A stretch of DNA of 59,963 bases from an uncultured virus (IMG/VR IMGVR_UViG_3300022927_001927) (Duplodnaviria; Heunggongvirae; Uroviricota; Caudoviricetes), in the IMG/VR virus record IMGVR_UViG_3300022927_001927; one strand, given 5' to 3'. The notes beneath the pieces were generated by a model. That model did not search any database. It was not told the DNA's origin and was given only the letters and a program-made list of their open reading frames with translations. Position 1 is the first letter of the stretch. Each line of letters opens with the position of its first letter. Positions 14,886 through 58,814 of this stretch are shown here, one piece after another. A program made the position numbers and the translations under genes.

Positions 14886-15830
14886 ATGTTCATGAAATAT
14901 CTAAAGTTATTTGAAGAATTTTCTAATGACTCTGCGTTAAAGAAAGTTTATCTTGCTACTCGTAGAGATAGCGGTCAAAGATGGTGGTCTTATAAAGGAT
15001 TTGCTGGTGATAACTTTTTCATTCAAGTTACTGAAAATAACATCGATAAGATTGATATAAATCCTGACTATCCTATTCTTAATTATCATAGTTCTATCAT
15101 AGATCAGCTTTTAAAGGAAAAGAGAATCAAAGAAGAAAATGTTTATAATCAATCTAAACATATTTCAAAATCTGGATCTAAAGAAGAATTTCATAAACTT
15201 GTAGGAGAAGACGAAAACATTCCTAAGACAGTATATTCTAAAAACGATGCATTAGAAAAACTCAATTTCCCAATTATTGCAAAACCCTCTAAGGGACACA
15301 GCGGAATAGGTATTCAGATTATTGATAAACCGGATTTAATGGAAGATGTAGATGAAAAGATTTTTGATACTTTTTCTGAATATGTTGATAAAGCCGAAGA
15401 GCATAGATTTATTAATTTTAAAGGTGAACCTATTTTTTGGATGGAAAGAACACCACTTAATGAAAAGGCTAAAAGTGGTAAGGGCGACGCTAAAGAAGAA
15501 ATGGAGTTTGGATATGCTAAGAGAAATGTAAAAGACATTCCAAAAGACTATAAAAAAGTTTTGGAAAAGTTTTGTAAGATATATGAAGACCTTCCCTATA
15601 TGTGTTTTGATATGATGAAATCAAAAGATGGTAAGGTTTATGTAATTGAATCAAATGCACAACCAGGTGTACCTTTTGATTCTACGGTTGAGGCTTATAA
15701 AAAGATCTATGAGGATTTTTACGGTAAACCTTTAGATAAAGATAGTTTAACTAAATTAGATGAATATGCAAAAACTATGGTTGAAAAAACTCTTAAGAAA
15801 GGCGGAGGCAAAAGATTTTCAATTAAATAG
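14886..15830 (+). CDS. ATP-grasp (RimK-like) protein with CTS-like leader
   Basis: IPKT, FPIIAKPSKGHSGIGI, EYVD...EHR, FDMM...YVIESNAQPG; N-terminus MKYLKLFEEF. Confidence 0.8.
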   Translation: MFMKYLKLFEEFSNDSALKKVYLATRRDSGQRWWSYKGFAGDNFFIQVTENNIDKIDINPDYPILNYHSSIIDQLLKEKRIKEENVYNQSKHISKSGSKEEFHKLVGEDENIPKTVYSKNDALEKLNFPIIAKPSKGHSGIGIQIIDKPDLMEDVDEKIFDTFSEYVDKAEEHRFINFKGEPIFWMERTPLNEKAKSGKGDAKEEMEFGYAKRNVKDIPKDYKKVLEKFCKIYEDLPYMCFDMMKSKDGKVYVIESNAQPGVPFDSTVEAYKKIYEDFYGKPLDKDSLTKLDEYAKTMVEKTLKKGGGKRFSIK

Positions 15831-15849
15831 AAAAAATTTCATCAATAAT

Positions 15850-15880
15850 TTTCAATTCCCAACTTTTTGTATTATATTTG
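15850..15880 (+). promoter_or_regulatory. Class A promoter with exact Bacteroidota -7 box TATATTTG
   Basis: TTTCAATTCCCAAC...TTATATTTG. Confidence 0.75.
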
Positions 15881-15913
15881 TAGTATAACAGTACAAACTG
15901 TAAAGAATAGAAT

Positions 15914-16456
15914 ATGCACAAAACAACAGAATTTCCATCAGACTTTTTCATAACGTCTGATACATGGTTCGGTAGGCCACAGATTTTGCAAATAGCAAAT
16001 CGCATATCATTTAAAGACATAGATGATATGAATAACCAGTTAATTAAAAACTGGAATAAGGTAGTAAAGAAAACTGACATTGTATTCCATCTAGGTAATT
16101 TCGCATGGGATCCTCAAACTGCAAGGCAGGTCCTTAAAAAGCTAAAGGGCGAGATTTACTTTTTACGAGGTAATACTGACCAGGCATTATTAGATGTGGC
16201 CGATGAATTTAGCAATGTAAATATTATAGAGGATCAAATCGCAGAATTTCCACAATACGATTCTGTTATTTGTCACTATCCGTTAGAGGTATGGAATGGT
16301 AAAGATTCAGGTACAATCCACTTTCATGGTCATACGGTATTTTCTCATAAGACAGATTTATCCAAAATGAACCGTGTTAATGTATGTACGGATTTTTGGA
16401 ATTATTCACCTATTAAGTATTCAACGATTAAAGATTTTACAAATGACAAAAACTAA
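15914..16456 (+). CDS. Calcineurin-like metallophosphoesterase fold with degenerate active site
   Basis: SDTWFG, HLGNF, GNTD, CHYP, HFHGH. Confidence 0.8.
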   Translation: MHKTTEFPSDFFITSDTWFGRPQILQIANRISFKDIDDMNNQLIKNWNKVVKKTDIVFHLGNFAWDPQTARQVLKKLKGEIYFLRGNTDQALLDVADEFSNVNIIEDQIAEFPQYDSVICHYPLEVWNGKDSGTIHFHGHTVFSHKTDLSKMNRVNVCTDFWNYSPIKYSTIKDFTNDKN

Positions 16457-17075
16457 AAAGACTTACAAAGAACTGGCATTAGAATTTAAAAAGACAAGAT
16501 CTGAAAAAACTTACAATGAACTTTATCATAAGATGCGCCCGGGGCTCTGGTCTTATGTTAATAATATTGTAAAGGATCCTACTATTGCCGATGACATTGT
16601 TTCTACGACATTAACAACGGTCTATCTAAAAATAGATCAGTATAATGAAGACTATCAAATTACAACATGGGCATATCGTATTGCTTATAATGAATGTATA
16701 GGTTGGATTAGATTTAGAAACAAGAAAGTAAGTATGAATGTATTTACTGATGCTGGCGTTGAACCTCCTATGAATGATTCTTTTACCACAACCGATGGGT
16801 TTTTACCTAAGACTGATAGTGACTGGGAAGAAGAAGAATCTACATTAGATGAACAGGTTAGACTAACGCATGAAGCAATAAATGCATTACCTCCTATGTA
16901 TAAAAGATACATGGTAGAAAGGTTCCTTAATCATAAATCATATTCGGATATCTTAGATATTATGAAAGAGTCTGAAAAAGGAATAAATTTACAAACAGTT
17001 AAGAACCGCATATTTAGAGGAAGGAAAATAGTTAAAAAACAGCTCGAAGGGATGAAACTTTTTTCTGAAGCCTAA
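16443..17075 (+). CDS. RNA polymerase sigma factor (ECF / sigma70 regions 2 and 4)
   Basis: ADDIVS, KIDQYN..YQITTWAYRIAYN; AINALP..Y...SY..I...TVKNRIFRGR. Confidence 0.88.
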   Translation: MTKTKKTYKELALEFKKTRSEKTYNELYHKMRPGLWSYVNNIVKDPTIADDIVSTTLTTVYLKIDQYNEDYQITTWAYRIAYNECIGWIRFRNKKVSMNVFTDAGVEPPMNDSFTTTDGFLPKTDSDWEEEESTLDEQVRLTHEAINALPPMYKRYMVERFLNHKSYSDILDIMKESEKGINLQTVKNRIFRGRKIVKKQLEGMKLFSEA

Positions 17076-17096
17076 ATACATAATAAACAGATAACT

Positions 17097-17549
17097 ATGT
17101 ACGCAAAAAAGCTATTAAGAGAAATTAACATTTGGCGAAAAATAAGAAACATTGCCAAAGAAAAAGAAGAAGAACTAAATAAAAAAGGATTTAGGGTTGA
17201 CTGGGTTGGTAGAATTTACACAGTCATTAATCTACCTGAAGAAGTTGTAACTGCACCAATTTCACAAGAAGGATATGTTTTAATGAAACTAAGAGAGCAT
17301 GATCAATTCTTATTGCAACTGGGTATTGCAGATTATGTATCACCAGAATTTAATAGAATTGAAGGTACCGACTCCTTTTTACTAGTCTTGTCACCAGATA
17401 GAGATCAACTTAGGTTATGGCCTTTTACAAAATCTGTATTTAGGACATCTCTTATTCTTTTAGGTCTAAGATTACTTTATGTTGTAATTTCTAATAACCA
17501 GGAAAAAATTGCTGAGGTATGGAACAAACTGACGAATCTGATATTTTAA
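17097..17549 (+). CDS. Hypothetical protein with C-terminal TM segment
   Basis: ORF with hydrophobic C-terminus. Confidence 0.7.
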   Translation: MYAKKLLREINIWRKIRNIAKEKEEELNKKGFRVDWVGRIYTVINLPEEVVTAPISQEGYVLMKLREHDQFLLQLGIADYVSPEFNRIEGTDSFLLVLSPDRDQLRLWPFTKSVFRTSLILLGLRLLYVVISNNQEKIAEVWNKLTNLIF

Positions 17550-17770
17550 GAAGTCAAATTGACAAAATTGAAAAAGAAGTTAAAGTCCTTGAAAAAGAAA
17601 AAGAGGCAATACAAACTGAGTGTAAACATAAGGGAGAAACTTATGTAGCATTTGATGAAACTAATTCTATGAAAAAATACTGCTCCACTTGTAGAAGGGA
17701 ACTAGGATATCCTTCAAAAGAAGAGCAAGATAAATTCTTAGGCAATACAAAAGAAAATGGCAACAGCTGA
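17519..17770 (+). CDS. Coiled-coil / Zn-ribbon small protein
   Basis: CKH...CSTC. Confidence 0.65.
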   Translation: MEQTDESDILRSQIDKIEKEVKVLEKEKEAIQTECKHKGETYVAFDETNSMKKYCSTCRRELGYPSKEEQDKFLGNTKENGNS

Positions 17771-18506
17771 ATCATTAGCAACAACTGAAACAATAAACGG
17801 TAAAAGATACTACAATGTAGGTGAAGGTAAAAAATACCCATCAGTTACAACAATCTTAGGAGCCATGACTGATAAGTCTGGTTTAGATAAGTGGAGAAAA
17901 AGAGTAGGAGATGAAGAAGCTGATAGAATTTCAAAATTCTCTGCAAACCGAGGTACGGTTATGCATCAACTTAATGAATACTTTTTAGGATCTGAAAAAG
18001 AGAGTACTCGTGAAAGATTACTCGACGCACAAAAACTTATCATTCCTTTTGCCGAAGAAAACGGCTTTACTGAAGAAGAAGTAAATATAGGGCGAAAGCT
18101 TTTCTTTAATTTCTATAACAATGATTGCTTTAACAGGATATCTAAAGTAGTATCTATTGAAGACACTCTATACTCACCTGTAATGGGAGGGTACGCAGGT
18201 AGAGTAGATATTATTTATGAGAATAATAAAGCTCATTTAATCGTCTTAGATTTTAAATCATCTAAGAAACCTAAGAAAGAAGAGTGGATTGAAAACTACA
18301 AATTACAAATTGCTGCATACTCTTTAGCATACTGGGAAATGAACGGTGTAAAACCACAGGGTGGAGAAATTTGGATAAGTAATGAAGCCGATGGGTTTCC
18401 ACAAATATTTGAAATGTCCTTTGAAGACATTACTTTTTATGGAAAGAAGTTTTTAGAAATGGTAAAAGCGTTTCATGAAAAGCATCCATTACCTGAGAAT
18501 ATATAA
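17757..18506 (+). CDS. PD-(D/E)XK exonuclease (Cas4/RecB-like fold)
   Basis: YPSVTTIL, RGT.MH, AGRVD, LDFKSS, YKLQIAAY. Confidence 0.88.
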   Translation: MATAESLATTETINGKRYYNVGEGKKYPSVTTILGAMTDKSGLDKWRKRVGDEEADRISKFSANRGTVMHQLNEYFLGSEKESTRERLLDAQKLIIPFAEENGFTEEEVNIGRKLFFNFYNNDCFNRISKVVSIEDTLYSPVMGGYAGRVDIIYENNKAHLIVLDFKSSKKPKKEEWIENYKLQIAAYSLAYWEMNGVKPQGGEIWISNEADGFPQIFEMSFEDITFYGKKFLEMVKAFHEKHPLPENI

Positions 18507-18523
18507 AAAAAATAAGTTTATCC

Positions 18524-18811
18524 ATGTTAATAAAATCATTTAAAGATTTTGTAAATGAAGGCTTAGGTCAAGTAAGACATAAGAAAGTAAATCATGTAGA
18601 AGATATTGATACCAAAGATGGTAACAATAAAGAAGCTGAGAAAAAAGCTGAGGAGTACATGGATAAAGTAGCAGAGGAATGTCCTAGATGTGGCGAGCAC
18701 CCTGATGATTGTAAATGTGAAGAGCAAGATCCGTGGTCAACTCAAAACTATCATAGAGTTCCTAAAGGAGAAGAAAAGAAATCAAAACCAAAACAAGAAT
18801 TTAAAAAATAA
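18524..18811 (+). CDS. Small Cys-containing protein with CTS-like leader
   Basis: MLIKSFKDFVNEG; CPRCG..CKC. Confidence 0.7.
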   Translation: MLIKSFKDFVNEGLGQVRHKKVNHVEDIDTKDGNNKEAEKKAEEYMDKVAEECPRCGEHPDDCKCEEQDPWSTQNYHRVPKGEEKKSKPKQEFKK

Positions 18812-24721: not shown

Positions 24722-24724
24722 GAT

Positions 24725-25501
24725 ATGCATCACTTATTTTGGTCCGGTCCACATAAACCTAATTGGGGGGATATTTTAAACATTCAGCTATATAGAGAAA
24801 TCACTGGTGAAGATCCTATATGGAAAGACTATAATAGTAAAGAATCTTATTATATGTCTATAGGTAGTATTTTGGAAAAAGCAACCCCACACAGTATCAT
24901 TTGGGGTTCAGGTTTTATGTATGAAGATGGTGTAGTCAAATCTAGACCTTTAGGAAAGAGATTTACAGTCAATGCAGTTAGAGGTCCTTTAAGTAGAGAA
25001 AAATTATTGGAACAGGGTATCCCTTGCCCTGAAGTTTATGGAGATCCTGCTTTACTTTATCCTAAATTCTACAATCCTAAAAATGTACAAAAGAAATATA
25101 AGTATGGAATAATTCCTCACTATGCTGATTGGGATCATATGTTAGTAGAGCAATGGAAAGATAAAGAAAATGAAGGGGTAAAGGTTATTAATATTTTAAG
25201 TGAAGATGTAAATGACTTTGTAGATCAAGTTTTAGAATGTGAGATTATCCTGTCTTCTTCTCTTCATGGAATTATTTGTGGAGATGCATATGGGATTCCT
25301 TCGTATTGGATTAAACTTTCGGATCTTGTATTGGGTGATGGGTTTAAGTTTAGAGATTACTTTGCTTCTGTTGATAGACTAGAAAATGATCCAATTGAAT
25401 GGAATGGTTCATTTAAATATTTAAAATTAGATAACTATTCCATTAATATAGATTTAGATAAGTTATTAGATGCGTGCCCTTATAAAAAAGATTTTATATG
25501 A
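24725..25501 (+). CDS. Polysaccharide pyruvyl transferase family protein
   Basis: NWGD, IGSIL, WGSG, AVRGPLSR, GDPALL, IIPH, SSSLHG.I..DAYGIP, FKF.DY. Confidence 0.88.
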   Translation: MHHLFWSGPHKPNWGDILNIQLYREITGEDPIWKDYNSKESYYMSIGSILEKATPHSIIWGSGFMYEDGVVKSRPLGKRFTVNAVRGPLSREKLLEQGIPCPEVYGDPALLYPKFYNPKNVQKKYKYGIIPHYADWDHMLVEQWKDKENEGVKVINILSEDVNDFVDQVLECEIILSSSLHGIICGDAYGIPSYWIKLSDLVLGDGFKFRDYFASVDRLENDPIEWNGSFKYLKLDNYSINIDLDKLLDACPYKKDFI

Positions 25502-27121: not shown

Positions 27122-27127
27122 TAAAAT

Positions 27128-28640: not shown

Positions 28641-28645
28641 ACAAT

Positions 28646-31516: not shown

Positions 31517-31555
31517 AATATCCTGATTGAATAAATAAACAAATCACAATATTAT

Positions 31556-32293
31556 ATGAAATTTGTTCAATCATTTAAGCAGTTTTTATTAGAGAAGAAA
31601 GAAGAAGACTTTGAAGACAAAATAAAAGGTCACGGCTACTTTAAAGGAATATCTACATCAACTGCCCGTAAGAAGAATGTTCAAATGAAAGATCAGGCTG
31701 ATATGGCCGATGATGATCCTAATGCATATAAAGAATTACCTGGAGATACCAAAGGTAAGAAGCTTCTGAAGAAATCAAAACACACTAAAGCATACGACGA
31801 ATTATACGGTGAAGCTATTATGCAAGAAGGTGTAATGTCTGATATTCATCGTATGATTGATGATTCTAAAACCTTTGATCAATTTCAAAAGGAATTCTTT
31901 AAAGAATACGGTCATAAGAAGTCTATGAAAAAGACCCCAGAGTTTTTGGAATGGTTAGAGGCACTATACAATGATTCAGTATCAGAATCTGTAAATGAAG
32001 AGCAGAAGCAGTCAACCGATCGCTCTCCTATTGATGATGATGCAATTGAAACCGGTTTAGAAAATAAATCAAAAGAAACTGGGGTTCCTATTGGAATTCT
32101 TAGAGCCGTTATGAGAAGAGGTATGGCCGCATGGAAAACTGGTCATAGACCTGGTGCTGGGCAACAGCAATGGGGTTATGCAAGAGTTAACTCATTTCTA
32201 ACTAAAGGTGATGGTACTTGGGGTAAAGCTGATAAAGATCTTGCAAAAGAAGTACGCGACGGTAGTCATGATAAAAAACTAAAATCAGCATAA
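31556..32293 (+). CDS. Modular protein with CTS-like leader; C-terminal DUF5824-like domain
   Basis: MKFVQSFKQFLLE; internal ESVNE; RGMAAWKTGHRPGA..QQWGYARVNSF (family recalled, not searched). Confidence 0.7.
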   Translation: MKFVQSFKQFLLEKKEEDFEDKIKGHGYFKGISTSTARKKNVQMKDQADMADDDPNAYKELPGDTKGKKLLKKSKHTKAYDELYGEAIMQEGVMSDIHRMIDDSKTFDQFQKEFFKEYGHKKSMKKTPEFLEWLEALYNDSVSESVNEEQKQSTDRSPIDDDAIETGLENKSKETGVPIGILRAVMRRGMAAWKTGHRPGAGQQQWGYARVNSFLTKGDGTWGKADKDLAKEVRDGSHDKKLKSA

Positions 32294-32838
32294 TGAAATT
32301 TGTAAAAGGCTTTAATGATTGGGATAAGGTATCAGAAGAACTTAAGTACCATGTTGAAAATGGATTAGGTTTAGAAGATACTGTTTTTCGTTTAGGATCC
32401 GATGCCCACGCTGAACTTTTTGAAGAAGTACAGCAATACTGGGATAAGGGTAACATTATCCTAAACGGCAAAGGTGGATGGATGGCAAAGAATCTTGAGG
32501 TAGGTAAAAAGGCCATCTATAAAGATCGTAAAAGTGGAAAAACGAAAAAAGTTAAATTAGATTCACCAGAAAGAGGAGGAAATCGTAAATTTATTGTATA
32601 CCGTAATACAGGTAGAACAGATAAAGAAACTGGTGAAATAGTTGCAAAAAAGATTGAGTGGGGAGATCCAGGATTAACCGTTAAGAATGATGATCCTGGT
32701 AGAGCTAAATCATTTTGGGCAAGACACGGTTGTGATAAGAAAGAAAAAATGGATCCTAATAAAGCAGGCTTCTGGGCATGTTACGGCCCTTCTCTTTTCG
32801 GAAAGCAGCTTGGCCTGAAAAGTACTCAACCTTGGTAA
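32293..32838 (+). CDS. Basic phage protein with CTS-like leader (DUF6321-like)
   Basis: KVKL..P.RGG..KF.VY..GDP....K..DP.R.KSF.ARH.C...AG.WAC. Confidence 0.65.
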   Translation: MKFVKGFNDWDKVSEELKYHVENGLGLEDTVFRLGSDAHAELFEEVQQYWDKGNIILNGKGGWMAKNLEVGKKAIYKDRKSGKTKKVKLDSPERGGNRKFIVYRNTGRTDKETGEIVAKKIEWGDPGLTVKNDDPGRAKSFWARHGCDKKEKMDPNKAGFWACYGPSLFGKQLGLKSTQPW

Positions 32839-32868: not shown

Positions 32869-34224
32869 ATGAAATTTATTCCTAGCTATTCTTCTTATAA
32901 AGAATCACTTAATGAAGCTATTACCCAATTGGCACCAGGATCTGATCCTAAACTTGAACAAGCAGCATATCTTATTGCATCCTTTGTTTCAAAGAAAACC
33001 AAAGACAAATTCGAGGTTTACCCTTGGGGCATAAATATAGATGGAACTCCTGCGATAATGTTAATTGGCAACAAAGGTTCTATGATCTATGTGGTTGGTA
33101 AAGGAGCTGGGCGTGGTCCTGGTGTTGTAGGTGCTCTTTTATATTACTCTAGTTTTGATAATAAAAATCCTGACTTTGCTATATCTAGTGATAGCTTCCC
33201 TATTGTAGCATTACTTAATGAATTCGTTAAATTTATTAATGAGCCTAAATATGCCGATGAAGTTGAAACTTTATCTGAATCTTTAAATGAAGGTAAAGGA
33301 AAGCCTCTTACTCCACAAGAGCAGAAAATGGTAATTAAGCAATTACAATCTGGTAAGAGTGCCGCTCAAATTGCAAGAGATCTTCAAATATCATACGGAA
33401 TGATTCTTCAGCTTAAAAGAAATCCTAGCGTTTCTGCTCAATTAGATGAAGCCCCTGTTAAAGCAAACGAACAAACATTGGAGGACAAAGTTAAATTCCT
33501 AGATGAAACCTTAACTGATATTTATGATATTGCAAGAAGGTTAGCTGCAGGCGCATTTAATTCATTAATGATATCAGGTCGTGCTGGTACTGGTAAAACA
33601 TATTCTGTTACTAAGGCATTATCTGATGAAGGATTAATTGAAGATGATGATTACATTGTAGTATCAGGTGCCGTATCAACAATTATGATGTATAAGAAAA
33701 TGTTCCAATACAGAACAAAGACATTAGTATTTGATGACTGTGATGCTGTATTCCGTGATGAGAACGGTCGTAACATTTTAAAGGCTGCTCTTGATACTAA
33801 AGCAGTTAGGAGAATTTCTTATCTTAAGAAGAGTGGATTAGTATTTGATCCTAAAGATTTTGAAATGGATCCTGAAGGTGAGTTTAATGCAATTGAGAAT
33901 GGATTGGTTCCTGCATACTTTGATTTTGCTGGTCGTGTAATCTTTATCTCAAACCTTCCTAAAGATAAGGCTGATCCTGATGGGGCAATCCGTTCAAGAT
34001 CTATTCTTATTGATGTTAATCCTGACGATGCTACCCTAATGGAAAGAATTAAGGTTCTTCTTCCACATTTGGAGCCAAGAGATATGGCTATTAAGGATAA
34101 GGAAGAAATTTATGAATTTATGAAAAAAGCCAATGACGTCTCAATGAGAACATTTATTAAGGCCGCTGGATTTAAACAAGCAGGCCTTCCTAATTGGGAA
34201 AGAATGGCATCAAGATATCTGTAA
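32869..34224 (+). CDS. HTH plus AAA+ ATPase protein with CTS-like leader
   Basis: ESLNE occurs twice; HTH (GKSAAQIARDLQIS); GRAGTGKT; LVFDDCD; ILKAALD; IFISN; AIRSR. Confidence 0.82.
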   Translation: MKFIPSYSSYKESLNEAITQLAPGSDPKLEQAAYLIASFVSKKTKDKFEVYPWGINIDGTPAIMLIGNKGSMIYVVGKGAGRGPGVVGALLYYSSFDNKNPDFAISSDSFPIVALLNEFVKFINEPKYADEVETLSESLNEGKGKPLTPQEQKMVIKQLQSGKSAAQIARDLQISYGMILQLKRNPSVSAQLDEAPVKANEQTLEDKVKFLDETLTDIYDIARRLAAGAFNSLMISGRAGTGKTYSVTKALSDEGLIEDDDYIVVSGAVSTIMMYKKMFQYRTKTLVFDDCDAVFRDENGRNILKAALDTKAVRRISYLKKSGLVFDPKDFEMDPEGEFNAIENGLVPAYFDFAGRVIFISNLPKDKADPDGAIRSRSILIDVNPDDATLMERIKVLLPHLEPRDMAIKDKEEIYEFMKKANDVSMRTFIKAAGFKQAGLPNWERMASRYL

Positions 34225-34227: not shown

Positions 34228-35271
34228 ATGAAATTTATTAAAACACGTAAAGATTTTTTAAATGAAGCAGTTAGAGTAGAAACTAACCGCTATGAAAGAA
34301 GTCATGGTAAAAAACCTAGAGGTTATGGTCGATGGGCGTTTTACTTTGATGATAAAGGTGGAGAGCCTATCTTTACACCAAAGGCAATGAGCTATACTGA
34401 TGCTGTTAAATGGGCAAAGGAAGAAGCTAAAAAAGCAGGTAAAGAATATGTCTATGTTGGTGAATCTGTTAATGAAGGTTACTCCGATGAGGAGAGAATG
34501 GAATTGGCAAAGAAAGGCTTAGCCTTAGATGACGGAAGCTTCCCAATTAAAGATCTTGCTGATCTTAAGAATGCTATAATGGCTTACGGTAGAGCTAAGG
34601 ACCAAGCAAAAGCTGCTAAGTTTATTGCTAAAAGAGCAAAGGCTTTAAATGCAGAGGACCTAATACCAGATACTGAGGATTTTCAAAAATCTTTAAAAGA
34701 ATCAACAATTACTGAAGCAACTAACATGAATGATCCTGTCTTAATAGCCTTTAGGGCTGCAAAGATGAAACGTGAAAAGGAATTGGCTAAACCGAAGCGT
34801 AGACCGCTTTATGGCAAAGAAAGAATAAAAGTTGAAGATGACTTATGGCAAATTAGCCAAGACCTAAAAGATCTTTATGCTGATAGGGGCCAACTGCTAA
34901 TCGACATGGAGCAAGAAGCTGAGCCTGAAGGTGGTCCAATTGCAGATGAATATGGTGGTAAATTAAACGACATTGAAGATCAAATTCAAAACCTACTTAC
35001 TAAGAGAAGCAGATTAGAAATAAGACTCGCCGAATCATTTGAACAATTCGTAAACGAGGCTAGTGGTAGAGTACCAACTACTCTCTACCCATCTGAGTTT
35101 AGAAAATATTTCTCAGATATAAACTATGACACTCTAAAGCGTCAATACGATAGAGATACTCAACCTGAAGTCGCACAAGCTGACAATGGAAAATGGTATG
35201 AAGTATCATCTCATTATAATAAATCAGGAGATAGGGTTATTAAATTAAAGTCTGTCAAGGCTCCAAAATAA
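34228..35271 (+). CDS. Multi-module protein with CTS-like leader (contains DUF6582-like module)
   Basis: MKFIKTRKDFLNEA; modules separated by ESVNE, ESTITE, ESFEQFVNE; A..DGSFPI....DLKNAI.AYGRA. Confidence 0.72.
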   Translation: MKFIKTRKDFLNEAVRVETNRYERSHGKKPRGYGRWAFYFDDKGGEPIFTPKAMSYTDAVKWAKEEAKKAGKEYVYVGESVNEGYSDEERMELAKKGLALDDGSFPIKDLADLKNAIMAYGRAKDQAKAAKFIAKRAKALNAEDLIPDTEDFQKSLKESTITEATNMNDPVLIAFRAAKMKREKELAKPKRRPLYGKERIKVEDDLWQISQDLKDLYADRGQLLIDMEQEAEPEGGPIADEYGGKLNDIEDQIQNLLTKRSRLEIRLAESFEQFVNEASGRVPTTLYPSEFRKYFSDINYDTLKRQYDRDTQPEVAQADNGKWYEVSSHYNKSGDRVIKLKSVKAPK

Positions 35272-35280: not shown

Positions 35281-35592
35281 ATGAAACATATTAAACTGTT
35301 TGAACAGCACGTCAACGAAAAGAAACATAAACCAAGCGGTTCAACTTATTTACCTGATTATTACGATTCAATTGAAAAACATTTTACTGATGATAGAAGA
35401 AAGAATCTTGAAGATGCTGGAATTAAAGTAACTTCAGACCCAGATCGTAAAACTAAGATTAAGGTAGAGTGGTCAACTGAAGATCAAGCTAAGGTATTAA
35501 GAAAGGAAATACAGTATCTTCTTAATAAGGTTTTTAACGCAGGGCGAGCTAAGAATCTACTTAGAGATTATGATTATAAACTTCTTAAATAA
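35281..35592 (+). CDS. Hypothetical protein with CTS-like leader
   Basis: MKHIKLFEQHVNE. Confidence 0.72.
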   Translation: MKHIKLFEQHVNEKKHKPSGSTYLPDYYDSIEKHFTDDRRKNLEDAGIKVTSDPDRKTKIKVEWSTEDQAKVLRKEIQYLLNKVFNAGRAKNLLRDYDYKLLK

Positions 35593-35602: not shown

Positions 35603-35938
35603 ATGAAATACTTAAAACACTTTCAAAGCCACCAAATAAACGAGAGAACCTTAAAGGATGCTATTATGTCATTCTTACCTCCTGTGTTTAGAAATGAAGT
35701 TTCATTTTCAGAAGGAATGAAAGCTCTTTATGGGTTAACTCAAGATCCGTTACATGTTATGTCTGCTATGAGAAAAAGACTTAAAAAGCTTGAATCTAGT
35801 GGTGAATTATCAATCGATAAAGCTGAGCATAAAAAACTAAGAATGGAAATGGATGAACTTGAACTTCTTATGAGTGATTACTATCAAGCGCTTAAAAGTC
35901 TTGATGAAAAATGGAGTAGCCAAATCAAAGAATTATAA
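35603..35938 (+). CDS. Hypothetical protein with CTS-like leader
   Basis: MKYLKHFQSHQINE; ATG 35603 preferred over the track start. Confidence 0.7.
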   Translation: MKYLKHFQSHQINERTLKDAIMSFLPPVFRNEVSFSEGMKALYGLTQDPLHVMSAMRKRLKKLESSGELSIDKAEHKKLRMEMDELELLMSDYYQALKSLDEKWSSQIKEL

Positions 35939-35941: not shown

Positions 35942-37048
35942 ATGAAATACTTTAAAACATACGAATCATACAGAAGAGGAGTTAATGGAGTAGGATCTCT
36001 AAAGAATTCATTAGCTGCTCTAAAGAGACAAAATATTACAGGTCGTTACACTGATGCAGAAACTTTGGCAAAAGGTATCCGTAATGAATATGAAGCTATC
36101 ACTGGCGAGAAATATGAGGATGAGGTTCAGATGTCAATGGATGATGCAATTGCTGATATTGTATCTCACTTTAAATTAGATGGTCCTGAATTTATGGCAG
36201 CATGGGATAGGGTAATTAAAGAATCCTATGATGGTACTTTAAGCGATATTAAGTATGATCTTGAAATGGCATTAGATAATTTAGGTATTAATTCTAAAGC
36301 TCTTAAAGGTGTTAAGAAAACTCCAAAAGGATATGAAGTTCGTATGTCTTCTTACATGAGTGATAAAAATACCTGGGATAGAATCGGTACTGATATTGGA
36401 GCCGACCTTATAGATTTTAAGAAAGGGAGTATTAATATTGGTATCTATGAAAAGGTTAATCTTAAAGTAGATCATTTATCATCTGCTGAATACCAAAAGG
36501 CTAAAAAGTTAAAAGACTTTAATAAAGATGATTGGTCATGGAACGGTGATACTCAACTTTATGACAGAGTTAATGAAGCCAAAAACAAAAAGGTAGATAA
36601 GAAGATGTGGAATAAGATGAGCGATGAAAAGAGATTTGATGCTCTCTTATCTGTTGTTAAAGATCCTGATGATGCTGAAAAATTTGTTAATAGCAAATGG
36701 GAAGACCTTCCTTCTGGTTTTGAACGTGATATGACCCTTTACGAATCTAAAAGAATTACTACAGGAGATGCTAGTAAAATTGAAAAGGATCTTAAGAAAG
36801 CTGTCCCTTCTGTTAACTGGGCTAAAGCTGCCAGATATGATGGGGAAATAACTCTCTTTGTTGAATACACAAATTATAAAGATCGTGCTTCTCTTAAAAA
36901 TGCTGGGGAATCTTTAGGACTTACTTATGTTGGCGACGGTCGTGTATCAAATAGACCAGGCCTTGATTTTAAAAGAGGTGATAAAATGGTCGGCATCGGT
37001 GGTATGTTAGGCATCGGATCTAATTGGATGAAATTCATAAAAAAATAA
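35942..37048 (+). CDS. Multi-module protein with CTS-like leader
   Basis: MKYFKTYESY; internal IKES, VNEA, LYES. Confidence 0.72.
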   Translation: MKYFKTYESYRRGVNGVGSLKNSLAALKRQNITGRYTDAETLAKGIRNEYEAITGEKYEDEVQMSMDDAIADIVSHFKLDGPEFMAAWDRVIKESYDGTLSDIKYDLEMALDNLGINSKALKGVKKTPKGYEVRMSSYMSDKNTWDRIGTDIGADLIDFKKGSINIGIYEKVNLKVDHLSSAEYQKAKKLKDFNKDDWSWNGDTQLYDRVNEAKNKKVDKKMWNKMSDEKRFDALLSVVKDPDDAEKFVNSKWEDLPSGFERDMTLYESKRITTGDASKIEKDLKKAVPSVNWAKAARYDGEITLFVEYTNYKDRASLKNAGESLGLTYVGDGRVSNRPGLDFKRGDKMVGIGGMLGIGSNWMKFIKK

Positions 37049-37053: not shown

Positions 37054-37470
37054 ATGATTACAAAATTTAATGATTACGTAAACGAAAGTTTTGGAGAGGC
37101 TCAAGATATGTATGGGTCTTTCTTTGTTGCTATGTTAGGTGTTAGAGACCAAGCACACATTTTCCATTGGCAAACTGAATCATATGCACAGCACATGGCA
37201 TTCGGTGGATTTTATGATGCTTACCTTTTATTGGTTGATAAACTTGCTGAATCCTTAATTGGTATTCATGGTAGACCAAGCTTCATGGAAGCTGAAACTG
37301 AATTCTCTGGATACTCCGAAGAAAATGTTCGTGTTTTCTTTGAAGAAGCATATGAACTGTTCACAGGACCTGGTATGCAATTGGCAGGTGACTATGGTGA
37401 AATTAAGAATGTCATTGATGAAATTCTTGCTGAAATTGATAAACTAAAGTACCTACTTACATTAAAATAA
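37054..37470 (+). CDS. Ferritin/Dps-like protein (DUF5856-like) with CTS-like leader
   Basis: MITKFNDYVNES; HIFHWQT.SYAQH.A....YD....VD..AE; N..DEI.....K.KYLLTL. Confidence 0.8.
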   Translation: MITKFNDYVNESFGEAQDMYGSFFVAMLGVRDQAHIFHWQTESYAQHMAFGGFYDAYLLLVDKLAESLIGIHGRPSFMEAETEFSGYSEENVRVFFEEAYELFTGPGMQLAGDYGEIKNVIDEILAEIDKLKYLLTLK

Positions 37471-49569: not shown

Positions 49570-49598
49570 GTAGAATAAATATTAAAATAAGAAATAAC

Positions 49599-49949
49599 AT
49601 GGAACACATTAAAGAGTATGATAGTTTTGTAAATGAAAACTTAGATACGATTAAAAAGACTGTATTAGATTTTGCTGAAAAGAACGGTAGATCTAAATGG
49701 AAAGAATTACATTCAGTAATCTTAAAGCAAAAAGGTTTGGATCCAAACGATAGAGATAATCGTGGACAATTTTCATCTTACTTTTCAGGCGGCTCTTCTT
49801 GGCAAAGAGGAAAGGGTGGTGATAATGGAAGAGATGCAAACTCACATGGTTTATTAATGAGACCTACTAAGAAAGATCCCCGTTACCTAGAGAAAGATGG
49901 TAATGAATATATTGTAAAGGTATGGGACGGTAAATCTAAATTATCATAA
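49599..49949 (+). CDS. Hypothetical protein with CTS-like leader
   Basis: MEHIKEYDSFVNE. Confidence 0.72.
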   Translation: MEHIKEYDSFVNENLDTIKKTVLDFAEKNGRSKWKELHSVILKQKGLDPNDRDNRGQFSSYFSGGSSWQRGKGGDNGRDANSHGLLMRPTKKDPRYLEKDGNEYIVKVWDGKSKLS

Positions 49950-50323
49950 TGAAATCATTTGACGAATTCGTAAATGAAAGTTTGATACAGAACATTAAAG
50001 ATCCGGGCTTTGACGGCTCGGATCCTAAAGCTATAGAAGTACATAACCAAGGTGTTGGTGGTGTAAGAACTCTACAAGGTCACCGTGATCAGATTGTTAA
50101 ACTTTTAGAGCAGATGCTAAAGGATGCTAAGATGGCACAAAAGAACCATAAACTTGCTCACTTTTCTCTAGGTAAGGTTTTATCTCTAGCTGATCCGCAA
50201 AGTTTAGGTGGTGTGTTTTTAGCTTATCTTAAGAACCATCAAGAAGCTGTTGAAGAATTGGAATCCTTAAGACGTAGAGGTGGAAGCGGCCCAGGAAAAA
50301 CTGTTCCAAAGGGACTTGTATAA
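49949..50323 (+). CDS. Hypothetical protein with CTS-like leader
   Basis: MKSFDEFVNE. Confidence 0.72.
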   Translation: MKSFDEFVNESLIQNIKDPGFDGSDPKAIEVHNQGVGGVRTLQGHRDQIVKLLEQMLKDAKMAQKNHKLAHFSLGKVLSLADPQSLGGVFLAYLKNHQEAVEELESLRRRGGSGPGKTVPKGLV

Positions 50324-50350: not shown

Positions 50351-50911
50351 ATGAAATACATTAAAGATTTTAAATCAATCAATGAAAACCGTAATGCTAG
50401 GCGGTTTCAGAATAAAGGTAAGTTACGTTACAATGATCAGTTCAGCGGTAATGTAAGTCTTTCAAGAACAATAGCAGATGCATTAGACGGTATGGATGTA
50501 GGATTTGATAGTACTTCCATGTATGATGTTAACTCTGGTAAAACAATTGTTGATGATGCATTAGATGGTAAGCATACATACGATGACTTAGTAAATCTTG
50601 CAAAGGAATGGTATAGTGAAAATAATTCTGCAACATACGGTATGAATGAAGCTTATAAGCTAGGTGATGGTTGGTCTAAAGAATTTGATTACATTGGAAT
50701 GTTAGAGATGGGCGCAAAAGCAAAAGCTTCTATGGGAGAAAAGAAACTGCAATCCTTGTTTGATTCTTTTGAAGATGTAAATTATCATTCTGAAGCTAGT
50801 CCACTTAGTTATGCTATTGACGAACTTAAAGACGGTAATAAAGCTGAGGCAAATCGCTTAATGAAAGAATTCAATAAGAACTGCCAAGATACACTAAAGA
50901 CACTTAAGTAA
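50351..50911 (+). CDS. Two-module protein with CTS-like leader
   Basis: MKYIKDFKSINE; internal MNEA; TATAAATA at 50319. Confidence 0.72.
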   Translation: MKYIKDFKSINENRNARRFQNKGKLRYNDQFSGNVSLSRTIADALDGMDVGFDSTSMYDVNSGKTIVDDALDGKHTYDDLVNLAKEWYSENNSATYGMNEAYKLGDGWSKEFDYIGMLEMGAKAKASMGEKKLQSLFDSFEDVNYHSEASPLSYAIDELKDGNKAEANRLMKEFNKNCQDTLKTLK

Positions 50912-50912: not shown

Positions 50913-52115
50913 ATGAAATACTTTAAAACATATGAAAGCTTCATTAATGAGGCTAAACTTTCAAAAGTCTTTAAGGCTGCAAAGAGGGGAAGCTATCCTG
51001 CAACAATTGTTGTAATTAAAGATAAGAAAGTTATTCACCAAGAACAGGTCAATACACCTGAGGCAATTCCTGCTGCTTTCAATGTTTTACAAAGAAAATA
51101 CCCAAAAGCCATTATAACCGTTGAAGATAAAACTGGCGCTACTCTCTATAGGGAAGTAGATGAGGTGAAGAATTATATGCAAAAGATAGACCTTAAGGAT
51201 TTTAAGGCTATTAAGAAAGGTACTAAACTTTTGTACATGGGAGGCGAAGCTGAAGTAGTTGACAATAACGGTTTTGTATTGACCTTAAAACAAAACGGTA
51301 AAAAGTTTACAGTTAATAAGTCAATGTTTGATCATGGTGGAATGATTAAAGAAGGTAAAGCACCTGATGCTAACAAAGCAATCAAAGACTTAGAAAGAAA
51401 AGGCTCTCAAATCGATTGGCTTGATGATGCCGATGATGATACAAAAAAGATTTGGAAAAAGGCTGGTGTTAATCCTGAAGATGAAAATACAGTTATTCTT
51501 TATTCTTATGTATCACATCAATGGGATGATGCTAAAAAGATTCTAAAGAAATATAATGTAGACTTTAAAGAATTAGAAGATCCTAACGCAGATGGAGAAT
51601 CATTTATTGTATTTGTAAAAGAATCAGTAGTTGATGAAGCTGCTAACGTTCCTAGTAACATTGAAAAATTTGCAAAGGAGAGAGGTGTTCTTAGAGATGT
51701 GAAACAAATTGCTCGTTGGGCAGAAAAAGCAGGTAAAAGAATTACTGGCGGTACTGCAATTGGTAAAGGCTATGATACTCTTGTGTTAGATTTAACTTAC
51801 CAAGGTGCTGAAGTTTACTATGATACTTATAAAGGAACTATCAAAGTAAATGGAAAACCTGTTGATAGTTGGAAAACATTTAGTAAAGCAGTAGAAGAAT
51901 CAGTTACTGAAGCTGAAATGACAAAGAAAACTTTCCTAGATCTTTGGAAAGAAGTATACGGAGAAAACTTTATTTCCGAATTCCCGGCGGTTGCTAAAAT
52001 CTTAAAGAACCGTCCTAATGATATTGATAAGAGAGAAATCTCTAGAATCTGGGATGAAACTTACGGTGAAGACTTTAAGGAAGAATATCCTGGTATCTGG
52101 GATAAGCTTGATTAA
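50913..52115 (+). CDS. Multi-module protein with CTS-like leader
   Basis: MKYFKTYESFINEA; internal IKEG, ESVVDEA, ESVTEA. Confidence 0.72.
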   Translation: MKYFKTYESFINEAKLSKVFKAAKRGSYPATIVVIKDKKVIHQEQVNTPEAIPAAFNVLQRKYPKAIITVEDKTGATLYREVDEVKNYMQKIDLKDFKAIKKGTKLLYMGGEAEVVDNNGFVLTLKQNGKKFTVNKSMFDHGGMIKEGKAPDANKAIKDLERKGSQIDWLDDADDDTKKIWKKAGVNPEDENTVILYSYVSHQWDDAKKILKKYNVDFKELEDPNADGESFIVFVKESVVDEAANVPSNIEKFAKERGVLRDVKQIARWAEKAGKRITGGTAIGKGYDTLVLDLTYQGAEVYYDTYKGTIKVNGKPVDSWKTFSKAVEESVTEAEMTKKTFLDLWKEVYGENFISEFPAVAKILKNRPNDIDKREISRIWDETYGEDFKEEYPGIWDKLD

Positions 52116-57178: not shown

Positions 57179-57334
57179 GAAGTATGCCTTACAGTGGTTA
57201 GATGAAGAAGAGCTCTGGTACTTAACAATACACGGAGAAGATGGTATAACATTTGAAGGTTGGTACCACTCAGTTGATGAAGCTTTAAAGGACATACCTA
57301 AGAATGAAATAAATAAAACAAATAACTAAATGAA

Positions 57335-57925
57335 ATGAACCACATACCTACCTTTGAGGAATTTAATAATAGAGAACTAAGGGAGAATAGTACTCTTATC
57401 CAGGAAACATATGATATCCTTGAAGGGCAGGTTAGTTATGAAGAGTTATCCGAAATACTAAATGAAGGCATCTTTTCCTTCTTAAAAGGGATCTTCACAA
57501 ATCCTAGACAGAAGAAGCAATTGGATAAACTCGGCGAGGATCTATTTAAAACCAAAGTAGAACTCCAGAAGCTAGAAATAGAAGAAGATCAAATAGACCG
57601 GTTTAAAGATGATCTTAAACCAGGTAGTACAGAATACAGCACTGCACAGTCTAAAATCAAAATAGCTGATAAGGCTAAAGGATTAAAGATTAATGCACTA
57701 AGAGATCGTGAAACCTCTATAGTATCTCAAATGGATAGTATAGGTGAAAAGAACGATACCTTAAAGAAGTATGTTGATAAGGTAAAGTTAGAAATCCGTA
57801 TGAGAGCTAACGATGCCACTATAAAACTAGCCGATGCCGAGATGGCTCGTGTATTAAAACAATTGCAAAGAAAAGATGCTAAAGAAGTTAAGGTCCTGGA
57901 TAAAGAACTTGCTAAAGCGGCGTAA
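57335..57925 (+). CDS. Coiled-coil protein with CTS-like leader
   Basis: MNHIPTFEEF; ILNEG. Confidence 0.7.
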   Translation: MNHIPTFEEFNNRELRENSTLIQETYDILEGQVSYEELSEILNEGIFSFLKGIFTNPRQKKQLDKLGEDLFKTKVELQKLEIEEDQIDRFKDDLKPGSTEYSTAQSKIKIADKAKGLKINALRDRETSIVSQMDSIGEKNDTLKKYVDKVKLEIRMRANDATIKLADAEMARVLKQLQRKDAKEVKVLDKELAKAA

Positions 57926-57989
57926 ACCTGCTCAAGTAGATCCATGGGACGAATGGTATCCAGACCATGATCTGTTTATCTAAAGAATT

Positions 57990-58178
57990 ATGATACAATA
58001 TTTGTTAGCTTACTTATTATGTGGCCTAGTATTTAACTTAGGCTATGATGCTCTTATTGATACAATTAAAGATGAGGATTTAAGACTTGATTGGAGAGAA
58101 AGATTTGCAATTCTGTTTACATGGCCATGGGCAGTTGGTGTATTGATAGCTGCATGGATCAGAAGCTGGAATGACTAA
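57990..58178 (+). CDS. Small membrane protein
   Basis: Two hydrophobic segments. Confidence 0.6.
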   Translation: MIQYLLAYLLCGLVFNLGYDALIDTIKDEDLRLDWRERFAILFTWPWAVGVLIAAWIRSWND

Positions 58179-58190
58179 AATAAATAAGGT

Positions 58191-58814
58191 ATGAAACACA
58201 TAAAGGAATACAGCAAATTTGTAAATGAAGCTCACGGCGATCCTATTCGTACAATGGAAAAGGTTAAAGCTTATCTTGAGGCAGAAGGAGAAACCGTAAG
58301 AGAATATAAACAGTACCTTACTATTGAGTTACCGAATGAAACAAAGACACTTCCTCCTAAATACAATAAGATCATCCAAAAGGTTATCAAAATGTCTGAA
58401 GGTAATATGGTAGCAGCAAGAGATGCAACTGGATACTATATGGGTAACTCAATTGCATTCATTTTCCCTGTATACAAAACTAACCTAAGAAAGGCATATC
58501 ATGTAGCTTCTGCACAGTATGTTGATACAATACTACAGAGAGGATTAGAACCAAGATCTGCTCAAGACCATTCAGATCAGTTTGGTTCATCATTAGGTAA
58601 TAAGAATATGGAACAGACCTATAAGGCAGCATTCGTTGTAGGATCCAAGGTAGGTGTAAAAATCGTAAAAGATCTATTTAGTATAAAGGATCCAGTAGTA
58701 TTAGAAATTGATCCAAAGGGTTTACAATTCTGGGAAGATCCGCTCATGCCAAAGGAAGCTAAATCGGCTCTAACATTCCAAACCATTCCAGCAGATAGAA
58801 TCAAAAGGCTGTAA
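58191..58814 (+). CDS. Protein with CTS-like leader and C-terminal ADP-ribosyltransferase/Tpt1-like fold
   Basis: MKHIKEYSKFVNEA; AYH......I...GL.P ... VVLEID ... IP...I. Confidence 0.6.
   Translation: MKHIKEYSKFVNEAHGDPIRTMEKVKAYLEAEGETVREYKQYLTIELPNETKTLPPKYNKIIQKVIKMSEGNMVAARDATGYYMGNSIAFIFPVYKTNLRKAYHVASAQYVDTILQRGLEPRSAQDHSDQFGSSLGNKNMEQTYKAAFVVGSKVGVKIVKDLFSIKDPVVLEIDPKGLQFWEDPLMPKEAKSALTFQTIPADRIKRL

What the first reader, a model, noticed from the sequence alone, without database searches (positions are those of the whole stretch)
14886..58814. Sixteen unrelated proteins share a T4-CTS-like N-terminal leader: a candidate large capsid-packaged cargo system
Seen: leaders MKYLKLFEEF (14892), MLIKSFKDFVNE (18524), MKFVQSFKQFLLE (31556), MKFVKGFNDW..VSEE (32293), MKFIPSYSSYKESLNE (32869), MKFIKTRKDFLNE (34228), MKHIKLFEQHVNE (35281), MKYLKHFQSHQINE (35603), MKYFKTYESY (35942), MITKFNDYVNE (37054), MEHIKEYDSFVNE (49599), MKSFDEFVNE (49949), MKYIKDFKSINE (50351), MKYFKTYESFINE (50913), MNHIPTFEEF (57335) and MKHIKEYSKFVNE (58191). 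The downstream domains are unrelated, and the metabolic and replication genes lack the leader. Known: T4 internal proteins carry a ~10-aa capsid targeting sequence (MKTYQEFIAE-like) removed by prohead protease gp21 after [ILV]-x-E. Inference: this phage uses a portable address tag to load a much larger and more varied protein arsenal into its head for injection with the DNA.
Basis: partly seen in the sequence, partly recalled or inferred. Interest (0 to 1): 0.93.

Follow-up and report, generated by a model that had tools for sequence, protein, structure and literature searches.

The report
Capsid-loading tag on jumbo-phage cargo proteins
An uncultured giant T4-like aquatic phage starts many unrelated proteins with the same short tag that phage T4 uses to load proteins into its head, strings some of them into cuttable chains of swappable parts, and repeats the tag's core in its own head scaffold, which suggests how such tags may work, although loading and cutting have not been measured.

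Summary
All 16 leaders are real and specific: a leave-one-out profile scores 14 of 16 at 8 bits or more, and 0 of 82 other window genes at 5. A record 99.87% identical to window 1-18675 supplies the missing head module: a gp21-type protease with intact His/Ser/Asp fused to a scaffold, and a capsid protein with the same [ILV]-N-E site. Five of six leader-gene clusters carry a late-promoter-like octamer 25-27 nt upstream. In cyanophage S-CREM2 the three best-scoring proteins are all in the published virion proteome; S-SCSM1 gave 1 of 3. Against a pure injected arsenal: leader genes also sit where T4 has core proteins, and two lack a cut site. The scan found such leaders and polyproteins before on other genomes. 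Verdict: an enlarged, modular variant of T4 capsid targeting; untested at the bench.

The parts
1..18675 (.). Stretch shared at 99.87% identity with record G001, which runs about 25 kb further upstream and holds portal, gp21-type protease fused to scaffold, major capsid protein, a further leader gene, terminase, sheath and tube (outside the window; loci L083, L084)
14866..14873 (+). Late-promoter-like octamer, 26 nt before 14892; same strict form stands before portal, protease, sheath and tube genes of G001
14892..15830 (+). Leader protein, 312 aa, ATP-grasp-like (Pfam hits below cut-off); aromatic half of the leader only, no cut site behind it
   Evidence: family keeps the leader at about 25-55% identity, some members lack it
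18498..18505 (+). Late-promoter-like octamer, 26 nt before 18524
18524..18811 (+). Leader protein, 95 aa, no family; predicted cut after E12
31530..31537 (+). Late-promoter-like octamer (relaxed form), 26 nt before the eight-gene leader cluster
31556..32293 (+). Leader protein, 245 aa, three modules; last is DUF5824; matches the C-terminal part of the cyanophage 'cytidyltransferase' family phrog_3041, not its enzyme domain; internal site after E148
32293..32838 (+). Leader protein, 181 aa, conserved in relatives and in cultivated Tenacibaculum, Flavobacterium and Methylophilales T4-like phages
32869..34224 (+). Leader protein, 451 aa: leader (cut after E16), N-domain, internal site after E141 (33289-33291), HTH-like piece and T4 NrdC.10-like AAA domain; T4 NrdC.10 itself has no leader
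   Evidence: internal site kept in 11 of 16 dereplicated homologues
34228..35271 (+). Leader polyprotein, 347 aa, four modules with joints after E13, E83 (34474-34476), E163 (34714-34716), E277 (35056-35058); modules recombine in homologues
35281..35592 (+). Leader protein, 103 aa, no family
35603..35938 (+). Leader protein, 111 aa, no family; one variant contig lacks exactly this gene
35942..37048 (+). Leader polyprotein, 368 aa; no cut site directly behind the leader; candidate joints after E94, E170, E212, E268; module 95-170 follows a leader directly in relative G003
37054..37470 (+). Leader protein, 138 aa, DUF5856, homologue of T4 rI.-1 (MobD.6)
49574..49581 (+). Late-promoter-like octamer (relaxed form), 25 nt before the four-gene leader cluster
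49599..49949 (+). Leader protein, 116 aa, basic, no family
49949..50323 (+). Leader protein, 124 aa; ten-residue leader in exact T4 IPII/IPIII register (aromatic 4 and 7, hydrophobic 8, Glu 10)
50351..50911 (+). Leader protein, 186 aa, two modules, joint after E100
50913..52115 (+). Leader polyprotein, 400 aa; candidate joints after E13, E84, E147, E242, E333; module 243-333 is a free leaderless gene in G002, module 334-400 lies inside a 1072-aa leader protein of G004
57308..57315 (+). Late-promoter-like octamer (relaxed form), 27 nt before 57335 (inside the end of the preceding gene)
57335..57925 (+). Leader protein, 196 aa, no family, further site after E44
58191..58814 (+). Leader protein, 207 aa; predicted KptA/Tpt1-like ADP-ribosyltransferase fold, leader unstructured in the model, E13 invariant in 22 aligned sequences with a variable spacer

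Best explanation
The leader is a two-part T4-type capsid-targeting sequence. The genes are transcribed late (inferred from a promoter-like octamer shared with head and tail genes). The K-x-[FY]-x-x-[FY] half makes the protein join the prohead core during assembly (inferred from T4, where residues 4 and 7 do the targeting); the [ILV]-N-E half is cut by the phage's own gp21-type protease when the head matures (inferred; the protease and the same site on capsid protein and scaffold are shown in sequence). In a subset of genes several small, independently shuffled domains are strung behind one leader and joined by E-S-[VLI]-[NT]-E linkers that carry the cut half but not the aromatic half, so one address loads a chain that maturation splits into separate 40-130-residue proteins (shuffling shown, cutting inferred). 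Mature pieces stay in the head and many are probably ejected with the DNA as host-takeover or counter-defence factors (inferred from T4 IPI, IPIII and Alt; one cargo has an ADP-ribosyltransferase-type fold), while some leader proteins are probably core components. My preferred, less certain, idea for the targeting step: the leader core copies the scaffold's own 14-residue repeat and co-assembles through the same contacts (about 35%).
For: Specificity. Protease with T4 gp21 H85/S140/D168 aligned in 5 of 5 lineage records examined; record G001 is 99.87% identical to the window over 18675 bases. Same site at E9 and E46 of the capsid protein, at the protease/scaffold border (E166) and near the scaffold end. 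T4 register: window-trained profile ranks T4 IPII 1st and IPIII 4th of 271; PMC9026906 section 2.6 (passage) gives residues 4 and 7 for targeting, 8 and 10 for processing. Promoter-like octamer before 6 of 6 cluster heads against 4 of 34 other genes with an intergenic gap, five at 25-27 nt; strict form 18 of 32 against 103 of 446 in four relatives. Published virion proteomes: S-CREM2 ranks 1-3 of 219 are all detected non-structural proteins, 7 of the best 15 among 193 non-structural genes against 26 of 193 overall, p about 0.001; RsoM2USA ORF89, a virion band, is best of 62 genes scored. Modularity: 119 homologues of 34228 show six module orders, strong sites at 0.78 per 100 residues against 0.085 shuffled, module borders at a site in 134 of 184 N-borders and 123 of 176 C-borders against 10% of random windows; 10 of 415 internal sites carry the aromatic pair. 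Scaffold repeats: 6-10 matches per scaffold in 5 of 5 records, shuffles mean 0.1; their profile ranks T4 IPII/IPIII first and second of 271 and separates window leaders from other genes (AUC 0.83). Leader present on 64 of 865 ORFs of four relatives.
Against: No packaging, cutting or ejection was measured for this phage. 2 of 16 leaders lack a cut site behind the aromatic pair. In S-SCSM1 only 1 of 3 annotated genes at 8 bits or more is labelled a virion protein, and three unannotated opposite-strand ORFs also pass. In S-CREM2 19 of 26 detected non-structural or unknown proteins rank outside the best 15, and the authors allow co-purification; RsoM2USA ORF38 and ORF86 have no leader. Internal sites are barely enriched in leader proteins of four relatives (1.59 against 1.13 per 1000 residues; 9 of 64 have any), so polyproteins are a subset. 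T4 gp22, gp67 and gp68 have no significant scaffold-type repeat. The relaxed promoter pattern was chosen after seeing the window; the strict one hits only 2 of 6 heads.
Confidence: 0.8

Rival explanations
1. The leader marks prohead core or filler proteins, like T4 gp67, gp68 and gp22, that are chopped up or simply retained in the head; the internal sites are degradation sites and little is injected.
For: A leader gene lies between portal and protease (the gp67/gp68 slot) in 3 of 4 relatives and a leader-like gene follows the capsid gene in G001 and all four relatives; the scaffold carries the same core nine times; 12 of 16 cargoes have no family.
Against: Sites fall at domain borders about 78 residues apart (median), not every 14 residues as in the scaffold; modules also occur as free genes; leaders sit on enzyme folds (ADP-ribosyltransferase-like, AAA, ATP-grasp-like; in cyanophages kinase, NMNAT-like, SAM hydrolase as annotated); gene content varies between relatives.
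Confidence: 0.11
2. The whole motif is only an extended recognition site of the phage protease (aromatic residues at P7 and P4 included); the proteins are processed late in the cytoplasm or head, with no targeting role, and the scaffold repeats are merely an array of such sites on an amphipathic helix.
Against: Internal linkers and the capsid-protein sites lack the aromatic pair (10 of 415); the spacer between pair and Glu varies within one family; some leaders keep the pair and lose the site; in T4 targeting and processing map to different residues.
Confidence: 0.06
3. The motif is not about the head: it is a degradation tag for the phage's Clp ATPase (37910), a secretion signal, or a by-product of AT-rich translation starts.
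For: A Clp ATPase gene lies just behind the largest leader cluster and a T9SS-signal-domain protein lies in the window; leader codons are AT-rich.
Against: No hydrophobic signal core; 0 of 82 other genes with the same AT-rich starts score; leader DNA varies at synonymous positions while the residue pattern is kept; match to T4 CTS register, capsid-protein site, late octamer and virion data are unexplained by it.
Confidence: 0.03

Closest known systems
Phage T4 capsid targeting sequence (CTS) of IPI, IPII, IPIII, removed by prohead protease gp21 (reviews PMC9026906, PMC3012670, PMC9958956, PMC5694885; passages read)
   Same: 10-17-residue N-terminal peptide on unrelated proteins; aromatic residues three apart followed by [ILV]-x-E; gp21-type protease, gp20-type portal and gp23-type capsid protein in the same phage; variable cargo behind a constant tag.
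   Different: 16 of 98 genes in 60 kb and 6-9% of ORFs in relatives against three or four in T4; cargo not homologous to IPI-III or Alt, 95-451 aa, pI 4.4-9.4; internal linkers making shuffled polyproteins; narrower site ([ILV]-N-E); protease fused to the scaffold, which carries tandem copies of the tag core (not seen in T4 gp22).
T4 Alt (head-packaged ADP-ribosyltransferase, cut at both ends by gp21)
   Same: A leader-bearing cargo (58191) has a predicted ADP-ribosyltransferase-type fold; gp21 cutting away from the N-terminus has a precedent.
   Different: 58191 resembles KptA/Tpt1 structures, is 207 aa and not an Alt homologue by sequence; Alt's own N-terminus does not fit this leader.
phiKZ / SPN3US head maturation (ejection proteins processed at [SA]-x-E)
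   Same: Many inner-head proteins of a giant phage, Glu-specific head protease, shared N-termini on diverged proteins (PMC5694885 passage).
   Different: Those propeptides are mostly long (over 100 residues) and the site has Ser/Ala at P3; this phage is T4-like in its head genes and uses short leaders with Ile/Leu/Val.
Non-structural proteins in virion proteomes of T4-like cyanophages (S-CREM2 gp6, gp14, gp154; S-SCSM1 gp91)
   Same: They begin with the same leader pattern; window gene 31556 shares C-terminal modules with the cyanophage 'cytidyltransferase' family.
   Different: The passages read do not mention a leader and leave open whether the proteins are packaged or co-purified.
Polyvalent proteins of phages and plasmids (mentioned in PMC7824862, passage)
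   Same: Multi-domain chains of shuffled modules thought to be injected with the DNA.
   Different: From recall they are anchored by MuF or ArdC-type domains and act as one chain; here none of those domains was found and the joints are protease-type sites.

Membership tests
T4-type CTS / gp21 cargo system | Short N-terminal peptide shared by otherwise unrelated proteins and absent from metabolic and replication proteins | tested here: met
   14 of 16 leaders against 0 of 82 other genes; bodies unrelated
T4-type CTS / gp21 cargo system | Aromatic targeting residues three apart (IPIII residues 4 and 7) | tested here: met
   14 of 16 by pattern; T4 sequences; roles from PMC9026906 passage
T4-type CTS / gp21 cargo system | [ILV]-x-E processing site closing the peptide | tested here: met
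   14 of 16 by residue 17, read; absent in 14892 and 35942
T4-type CTS / gp21 cargo system | gp21-type serine protease with His/Ser/Asp triad in the same phage | tested here: met
   PF03420 in G001, a record 99.87% identical to window 1-18675, not in the window itself; triad aligned in 5 of 5 records
T4-type CTS / gp21 cargo system | Same site on capsid-protein propeptide and scaffold | tested here: met
   capsid protein E9 and E46; protease-scaffold E166, E369, E540, E557 and the repeats
T4-type CTS / gp21 cargo system | Cargo made in time for head assembly | tested here: inconclusive
   late-promoter-like octamer at fixed distance; RNA runs are contigs only and cannot show timing or level
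T4-type CTS / gp21 cargo system | Cargo inside mature heads with the peptide removed | not testable with these tools
   phage uncultured; only indirect: virion proteomes of S-CREM2 (supportive), S-SCSM1 (1 of 3), RsoM2USA (1 of 3 bands in the part scored); no peptide-level data seen
T4-type CTS / gp21 cargo system | Peptide sufficient to package a foreign protein; cargo ejected into the host | not testable with these tools
   needs fusion and infection experiments
T4 internal proteins IPI/IPII/IPIII/Alt as protein families | Sequence homology of the mature part | tested here: not met
   phmmer of the 16 proteins against 271 T4 proteins hits only NrdC.10 and rI.-1
phiKZ/SPN3US-type ejection-protein processing | Long propeptides cut at [SA]-x-E | tested here: not met
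   leaders are 10-17 residues with Ile/Leu/Val at P3; reference rule from PMC5694885 and PMC9026906 passages
Polyvalent proteins | MuF or ArdC-type anchor domains (feature recalled, not from a call) | tested here: not met
   no such Pfam or PHROG hit in 16 proteins or 29 modules

The most novel reading that the evidence does not exclude
The capsid-targeting tag is a single-copy mimic of the prohead scaffold's own 14-residue repeat (Y-x-x-[YH]-[ILV]-A-E), so any protein gains a seat in the core by acquiring about ten residues; this lineage has turned that into a cassette system in which one tag loads chains of freely recombined mini-proteins that the head protease releases as an injected library. 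The same tag explains the enzymes reported in cyanophage virions, and lets the head cargo of uncultured T4-like phages be read from sequence alone.
Probability: 0.3. Interest if true: 0.86.

Novelty: new variant of a known kind. Interest (0 to 1): 0.66.

Why it matters
How proteins are localised in the T4 prohead core is described as still mysterious and the core structure as unresolved (PMC9958956 section 3.1, passage). A scaffold that carries tandem copies of the tag core gives a concrete, testable model. Proteins delivered with the DNA are the only phage products that can act before any gene is expressed, and T4's IPI and IPIII are counter-defence factors (PMC3012670, PMC9391042 passages), so a sequence rule for head cargo yields a short list of candidate first-minute effectors from thousands of unknown genes. 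Protease-released polyproteins are familiar from RNA viruses (general knowledge) but I found no description for tailed-phage head cargo in the searches named in the full report. A tag that works with a fused protease-scaffold in very large heads could also extend protein loading of laboratory phage particles.

Tried and rejected
No whole genome is held for the window; the head module comes from overlapping record G001. Complex prediction of two scaffold-repeat chains with the first 32 residues of 58191 gave no answer (score 0.00); it is evidence neither way. Single-sequence fold of 58191 was useless (pLDDT 39); the 22-row alignment fixed it. Pfam/PHROGs scans of 29 modules gave only DUF5824, phrog_3041, phrog_7595 and a sub-cut-off HTH; Atlas hits for 58191 and module 84-160 of 34228 were leads under or near 0.9. 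The generic [ILV]-x-E triplet is not enriched in leader proteins over other genes (59 in 3260 against 275 in 13813); only the narrower forms are. A scaffold-type repeat in T4 gp22/gp67/gp68 was sought and not found above shuffles; S-CREM2 and S-SCSM1 scaffolds gave single borderline 7-mers (4 of 200 shuffles reach them) and nothing with the 14-mer. Looking for T4 rI.-1 or NrdC.10 in published virion data found nothing usable. S-SCSM1's supplement and the S-CREM1 passages hold no list of detected proteins. RNA runs hold the stretch but are contigs, so depth cannot rank genes and transcription is not shown. A shared DNA cassette for the leaders was rejected: only 35942 and 50913 share a long identical start. 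Assignment to the moraphage lineage (PMC12619734) fits the gene content but was not tested.

Full report
Observation. I called 98 genes by hand from the ORF lists. A profile built from the leaders, aligned by hand on the first aromatic residue and tested leave-one-out, scores 14 of 16 at 8 bits or more and none of the other 82 genes above 1 bit. The motif has two halves: K-x-[FY]-x-x-[FYWH], then [ILV]-N-E and usually a small residue. The spacer between them varies from 0 to about 10 residues within single families. 14 of 16 have the second half by residue 17; 14892 and 35942 do not. The bodies are unrelated: an ATP-grasp-like protein (below Pfam cut-off), homologues of T4 NrdC.10 and rI.-1, a DUF5824 protein, and twelve without family, one of which (58191) folds like KptA/Tpt1 ADP-ribosyltransferases (model pLDDT 80, best E 4.6e-5, TM by query 0.39; leader residues 1-14 unstructured).

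The phage. The window is part of a large T4-like phage (34% GC); its topoisomerase is closest, at 55%, to a 642-kb uncultured phage among 50,697 records. A T9SS-signal-domain gene points to a Bacteroidota host (inference). Record G001 is 99.87% identical over window 1-18675 and continues upstream into portal (PF07230), a 573-residue protease-scaffold fusion (PF03420), capsid protein (PF07068), a 372-residue leader-like protein, terminase, sheath and tube. T4 gp21's His85, Ser140 and Asp168 positions are kept in 5 of 5 lineage records (that these form the triad is recalled). The capsid protein has [IL]-N-E sites at 9 and 46; the fusion has them at 166, just behind the protease domain, and at 369, 540 and 557. 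So the second half of the leader is the site that this phage's head proteins share. Four more distant records carry the leader on 28 of 313, 14 of 201, 14 of 213 and 8 of 138 ORFs from my own crude caller; a looser pattern adds 14 more, some false; a fifth record (G005, 67 kb) had no head genes and was not scanned whole.

Timing. An octamer RATATATA stands within 60 nt of 8 of 26 ORFs of the G001 extension, among them portal, protease, sheath and tube but not the capsid gene. In the window the strict form precedes 2 of 6 leader-cluster heads and 0 of 34 other genes with a gap of 10 nt or more; a relaxed form, chosen after seeing the data, precedes 6 of 6 against 4 of 34, five of them at 25-27 nt. 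In the four relatives the strict form precedes 18 of 32 heads against 103 of 446 others. RNA-library contigs hold the stretch in salt-marsh and freshwater runs but cannot show level or timing.

Check against known heads. The window profile ranks T4 IPII 1st, cd.3 2nd, 61.1 3rd, IPIII 4th and IPI 12th of 271 genes, and misses Alt and gp24; this is partly circular. More independent: for cyanophage S-CREM2, Table 3 of PMC10665884 (section read whole) lists 52 of 219 proteins found in CsCl-purified virions. The three best scores are gp6, gp154 and gp14, all detected and non-structural; 7 of the best 15 among 193 non-structural genes are detected against 26 of 193 overall (p about 0.001, thresholds not fixed beforehand). 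No structural protein is in the best 23, and 19 of the 26 rank lower, so many virion proteins do not use this tag. S-SCSM1 is weaker: of three annotated genes at 8 bits or more only gp91 is labelled a virion protein (I used the record's labels, 48 by my count, where the paper reports 45 detected; passages only). For RsoM2USA I scored 62 of 70 features in 50 of 344 kb (six + strand and two cut features dropped): ORF89, a virion gel band, is best; bands ORF38 and ORF86 have no leader.

Polyproteins. The cut half recurs inside seven of the sixteen proteins. 34228 has 1732 homologues of near length, of which I analysed the best 119: its modules A, B and C occur as C alone (59), AB (47), ABC (9), AA (2), CB and BC (1 each), with other modules between; 75 of 119 begin with a leader; strong sites run at 0.78 per 100 residues against 0.085 shuffled, median spacing 78 residues, consensus E-S-[VLI]-[NT]-E then Ala/Gly; projected module starts have a site in 134 of 184 cases and ends in 123 of 176 against 10% of random windows. 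A module that follows an internal site in 35942 follows a leader directly in G003; one from 50913 is a free leaderless gene in G002. The internal site of the AAA protein is kept in 11 of 16 dereplicated homologues. Internal sites carry the aromatic pair in only 10 of 415 cases: linkers are cut signals, leaders are cut signal plus something else. The architecture is a subset feature: in the four relatives only 9 of 64 leader proteins have a strong internal site. The ATP-grasp-like family keeps a leader in 41 of 111 full-length members among the best 150 hits, while others start directly at the domain.

Scaffold repeats. Residues 239-357 of the fusion are nine tandem 14-residue units with core Y-x-x-[YH]-[ILV]-[ASG]-E; the five lineage scaffolds hold 6-10 matches each (two are cut by tile ends), are the top five proteins for this pattern in the five records, and shuffles give 0.1. 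A seven-column profile from 34 units taken by register ranks T4 IPII and IPIII first and second of 271 (11.6 bits, next 7.3; the two share one ten-residue start, so this is one event) and separates window leaders from other genes (AUC 0.83, p 1.5e-5). I noticed the repeat through its likeness to the leader. T4 gp22, gp67 and gp68 show no such repeat above chance. Either the tag copies the scaffold unit and co-assembles, or both bind a third surface, or both are amphipathic helices ending in a cut site; sequence cannot decide.

What is known. Passages of PMC9026906, PMC5694885, PMC3012670 and PMC9958956 give the T4 CTS, the L/I-x-E rule, targeting at residues 4 and 7, processing at 8 and 10, and already propose the CTS as a way for T4-like phages to package varied proteins; the 1996 primary paper was not read. 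PMC9391042 (passages) shows IPIII is needed on one host. Passages of PMC7824862, PMC12619734, PMC3622015, PMC9964418 and PMC13326640 did not describe this leader. Nine library searches listed no paper on genome-wide CTS leaders in jumbo phages, protease-jointed head polyproteins or a scaffold that repeats the tag; the library lacks most subscription journals, and peptide-level supplements, which could show cut N-termini, were not seen. This scan's notes report such leaders on at least 55 other genomes and polyproteins on at least 7; I had seen the internal sites before reading the latter. No note held the scaffold-mimic idea; the closest reads a shared scaffold signal as a cutting rule.

Verdict. 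It works like, and by every sequence feature testable here belongs to, the T4 CTS/gp21 system; the cargo proteins are not T4 internal-protein homologues. New are the scale, the jointed cassettes, the protease-scaffold fusion with tag-like repeats, and the match to unexplained enzymes in a cyanophage virion proteome. Head targeting with cutting: about 80%. That most cargo is injected to act on the host: about 55%. Scaffold mimicry: about 35%. Novelty: new variant of a known kind; interest 0.66.

Noticed in passing
L084:14308-16029 (minus strand; record G001, upstream of the window): Prohead protease and scaffold are one 573-residue protein, as in four relatives (two full-length at 649 and 734 aa); T4 and the two cyanophages have them as separate genes.
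   Followed up: yes
L084:11287-12405 (minus strand): 372-residue leader-like protein behind the capsid gene, with Pro-rich repeats, ends in a cut site plus a short basic tail resembling the scaffold's own C-terminus; may be an accessory core protein.
   Followed up: partly
Homologues P0061, P0066, P0078, P0090; L120:13626-13835: Some polyprotein homologues begin with a different conserved N-terminus (several carry PF11450) instead of the leader; S-SCSM1 gp93, labelled a virion protein, is a free-standing 69-residue protein with a similar start. Possibly a second head-loading signal.
   Followed up: no
window 35027-35947: Single RNA-library contigs of variants skip 35028-35941 or exactly gene 35603, or continue from the 35942 start into a different leader sequence: weak hints that leader genes are gained and lost as whole cassettes.
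   Followed up: partly
L114:18966-19130 (T4 gene 61.1) and L113:44335-44610 (cd.3): Both T4 genes score like IPII/IPIII with the window profile; 61.1 has a clean CTS-type start.
   Followed up: no
window 12717-14874 and 23351-30348: A second thymidylate-synthase-like gene beside two nucleotide kinases, plus a block of sugar-nucleotide and transferase genes; earlier notes on relatives read the former as a gp42-like dCMP hydroxymethylase.
   Followed up: no
window upstream of 4090, 15914, 45811, 46955; gene 16443-17075: A conserved element of about 35 nt, different from the late octamer, precedes four gene blocks; a sigma-70 region 2/4 protein is encoded at 16443.
   Followed up: no
window 52182-53447: 421-residue protein with a signal-like start and a CHU_C type IX secretion signal domain (E 3.7e-13), suggesting a phage protein routed through the host's T9SS.
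   Followed up: no
window 37910-39928: Clp-type ATPase of 672 aa directly behind the largest leader cluster; its first AAA domain starts near residue 69, so it seems to lack a full N-domain.
   Followed up: no
window 34477-34716: Module B of 34228 is found by the Atlas in clusters with PF20223, head proteases (PF04586, PF00574), NUDIX and DUF5856 domains, i.e. it also travels with unrelated phage head proteases (leads only).
   Followed up: partly
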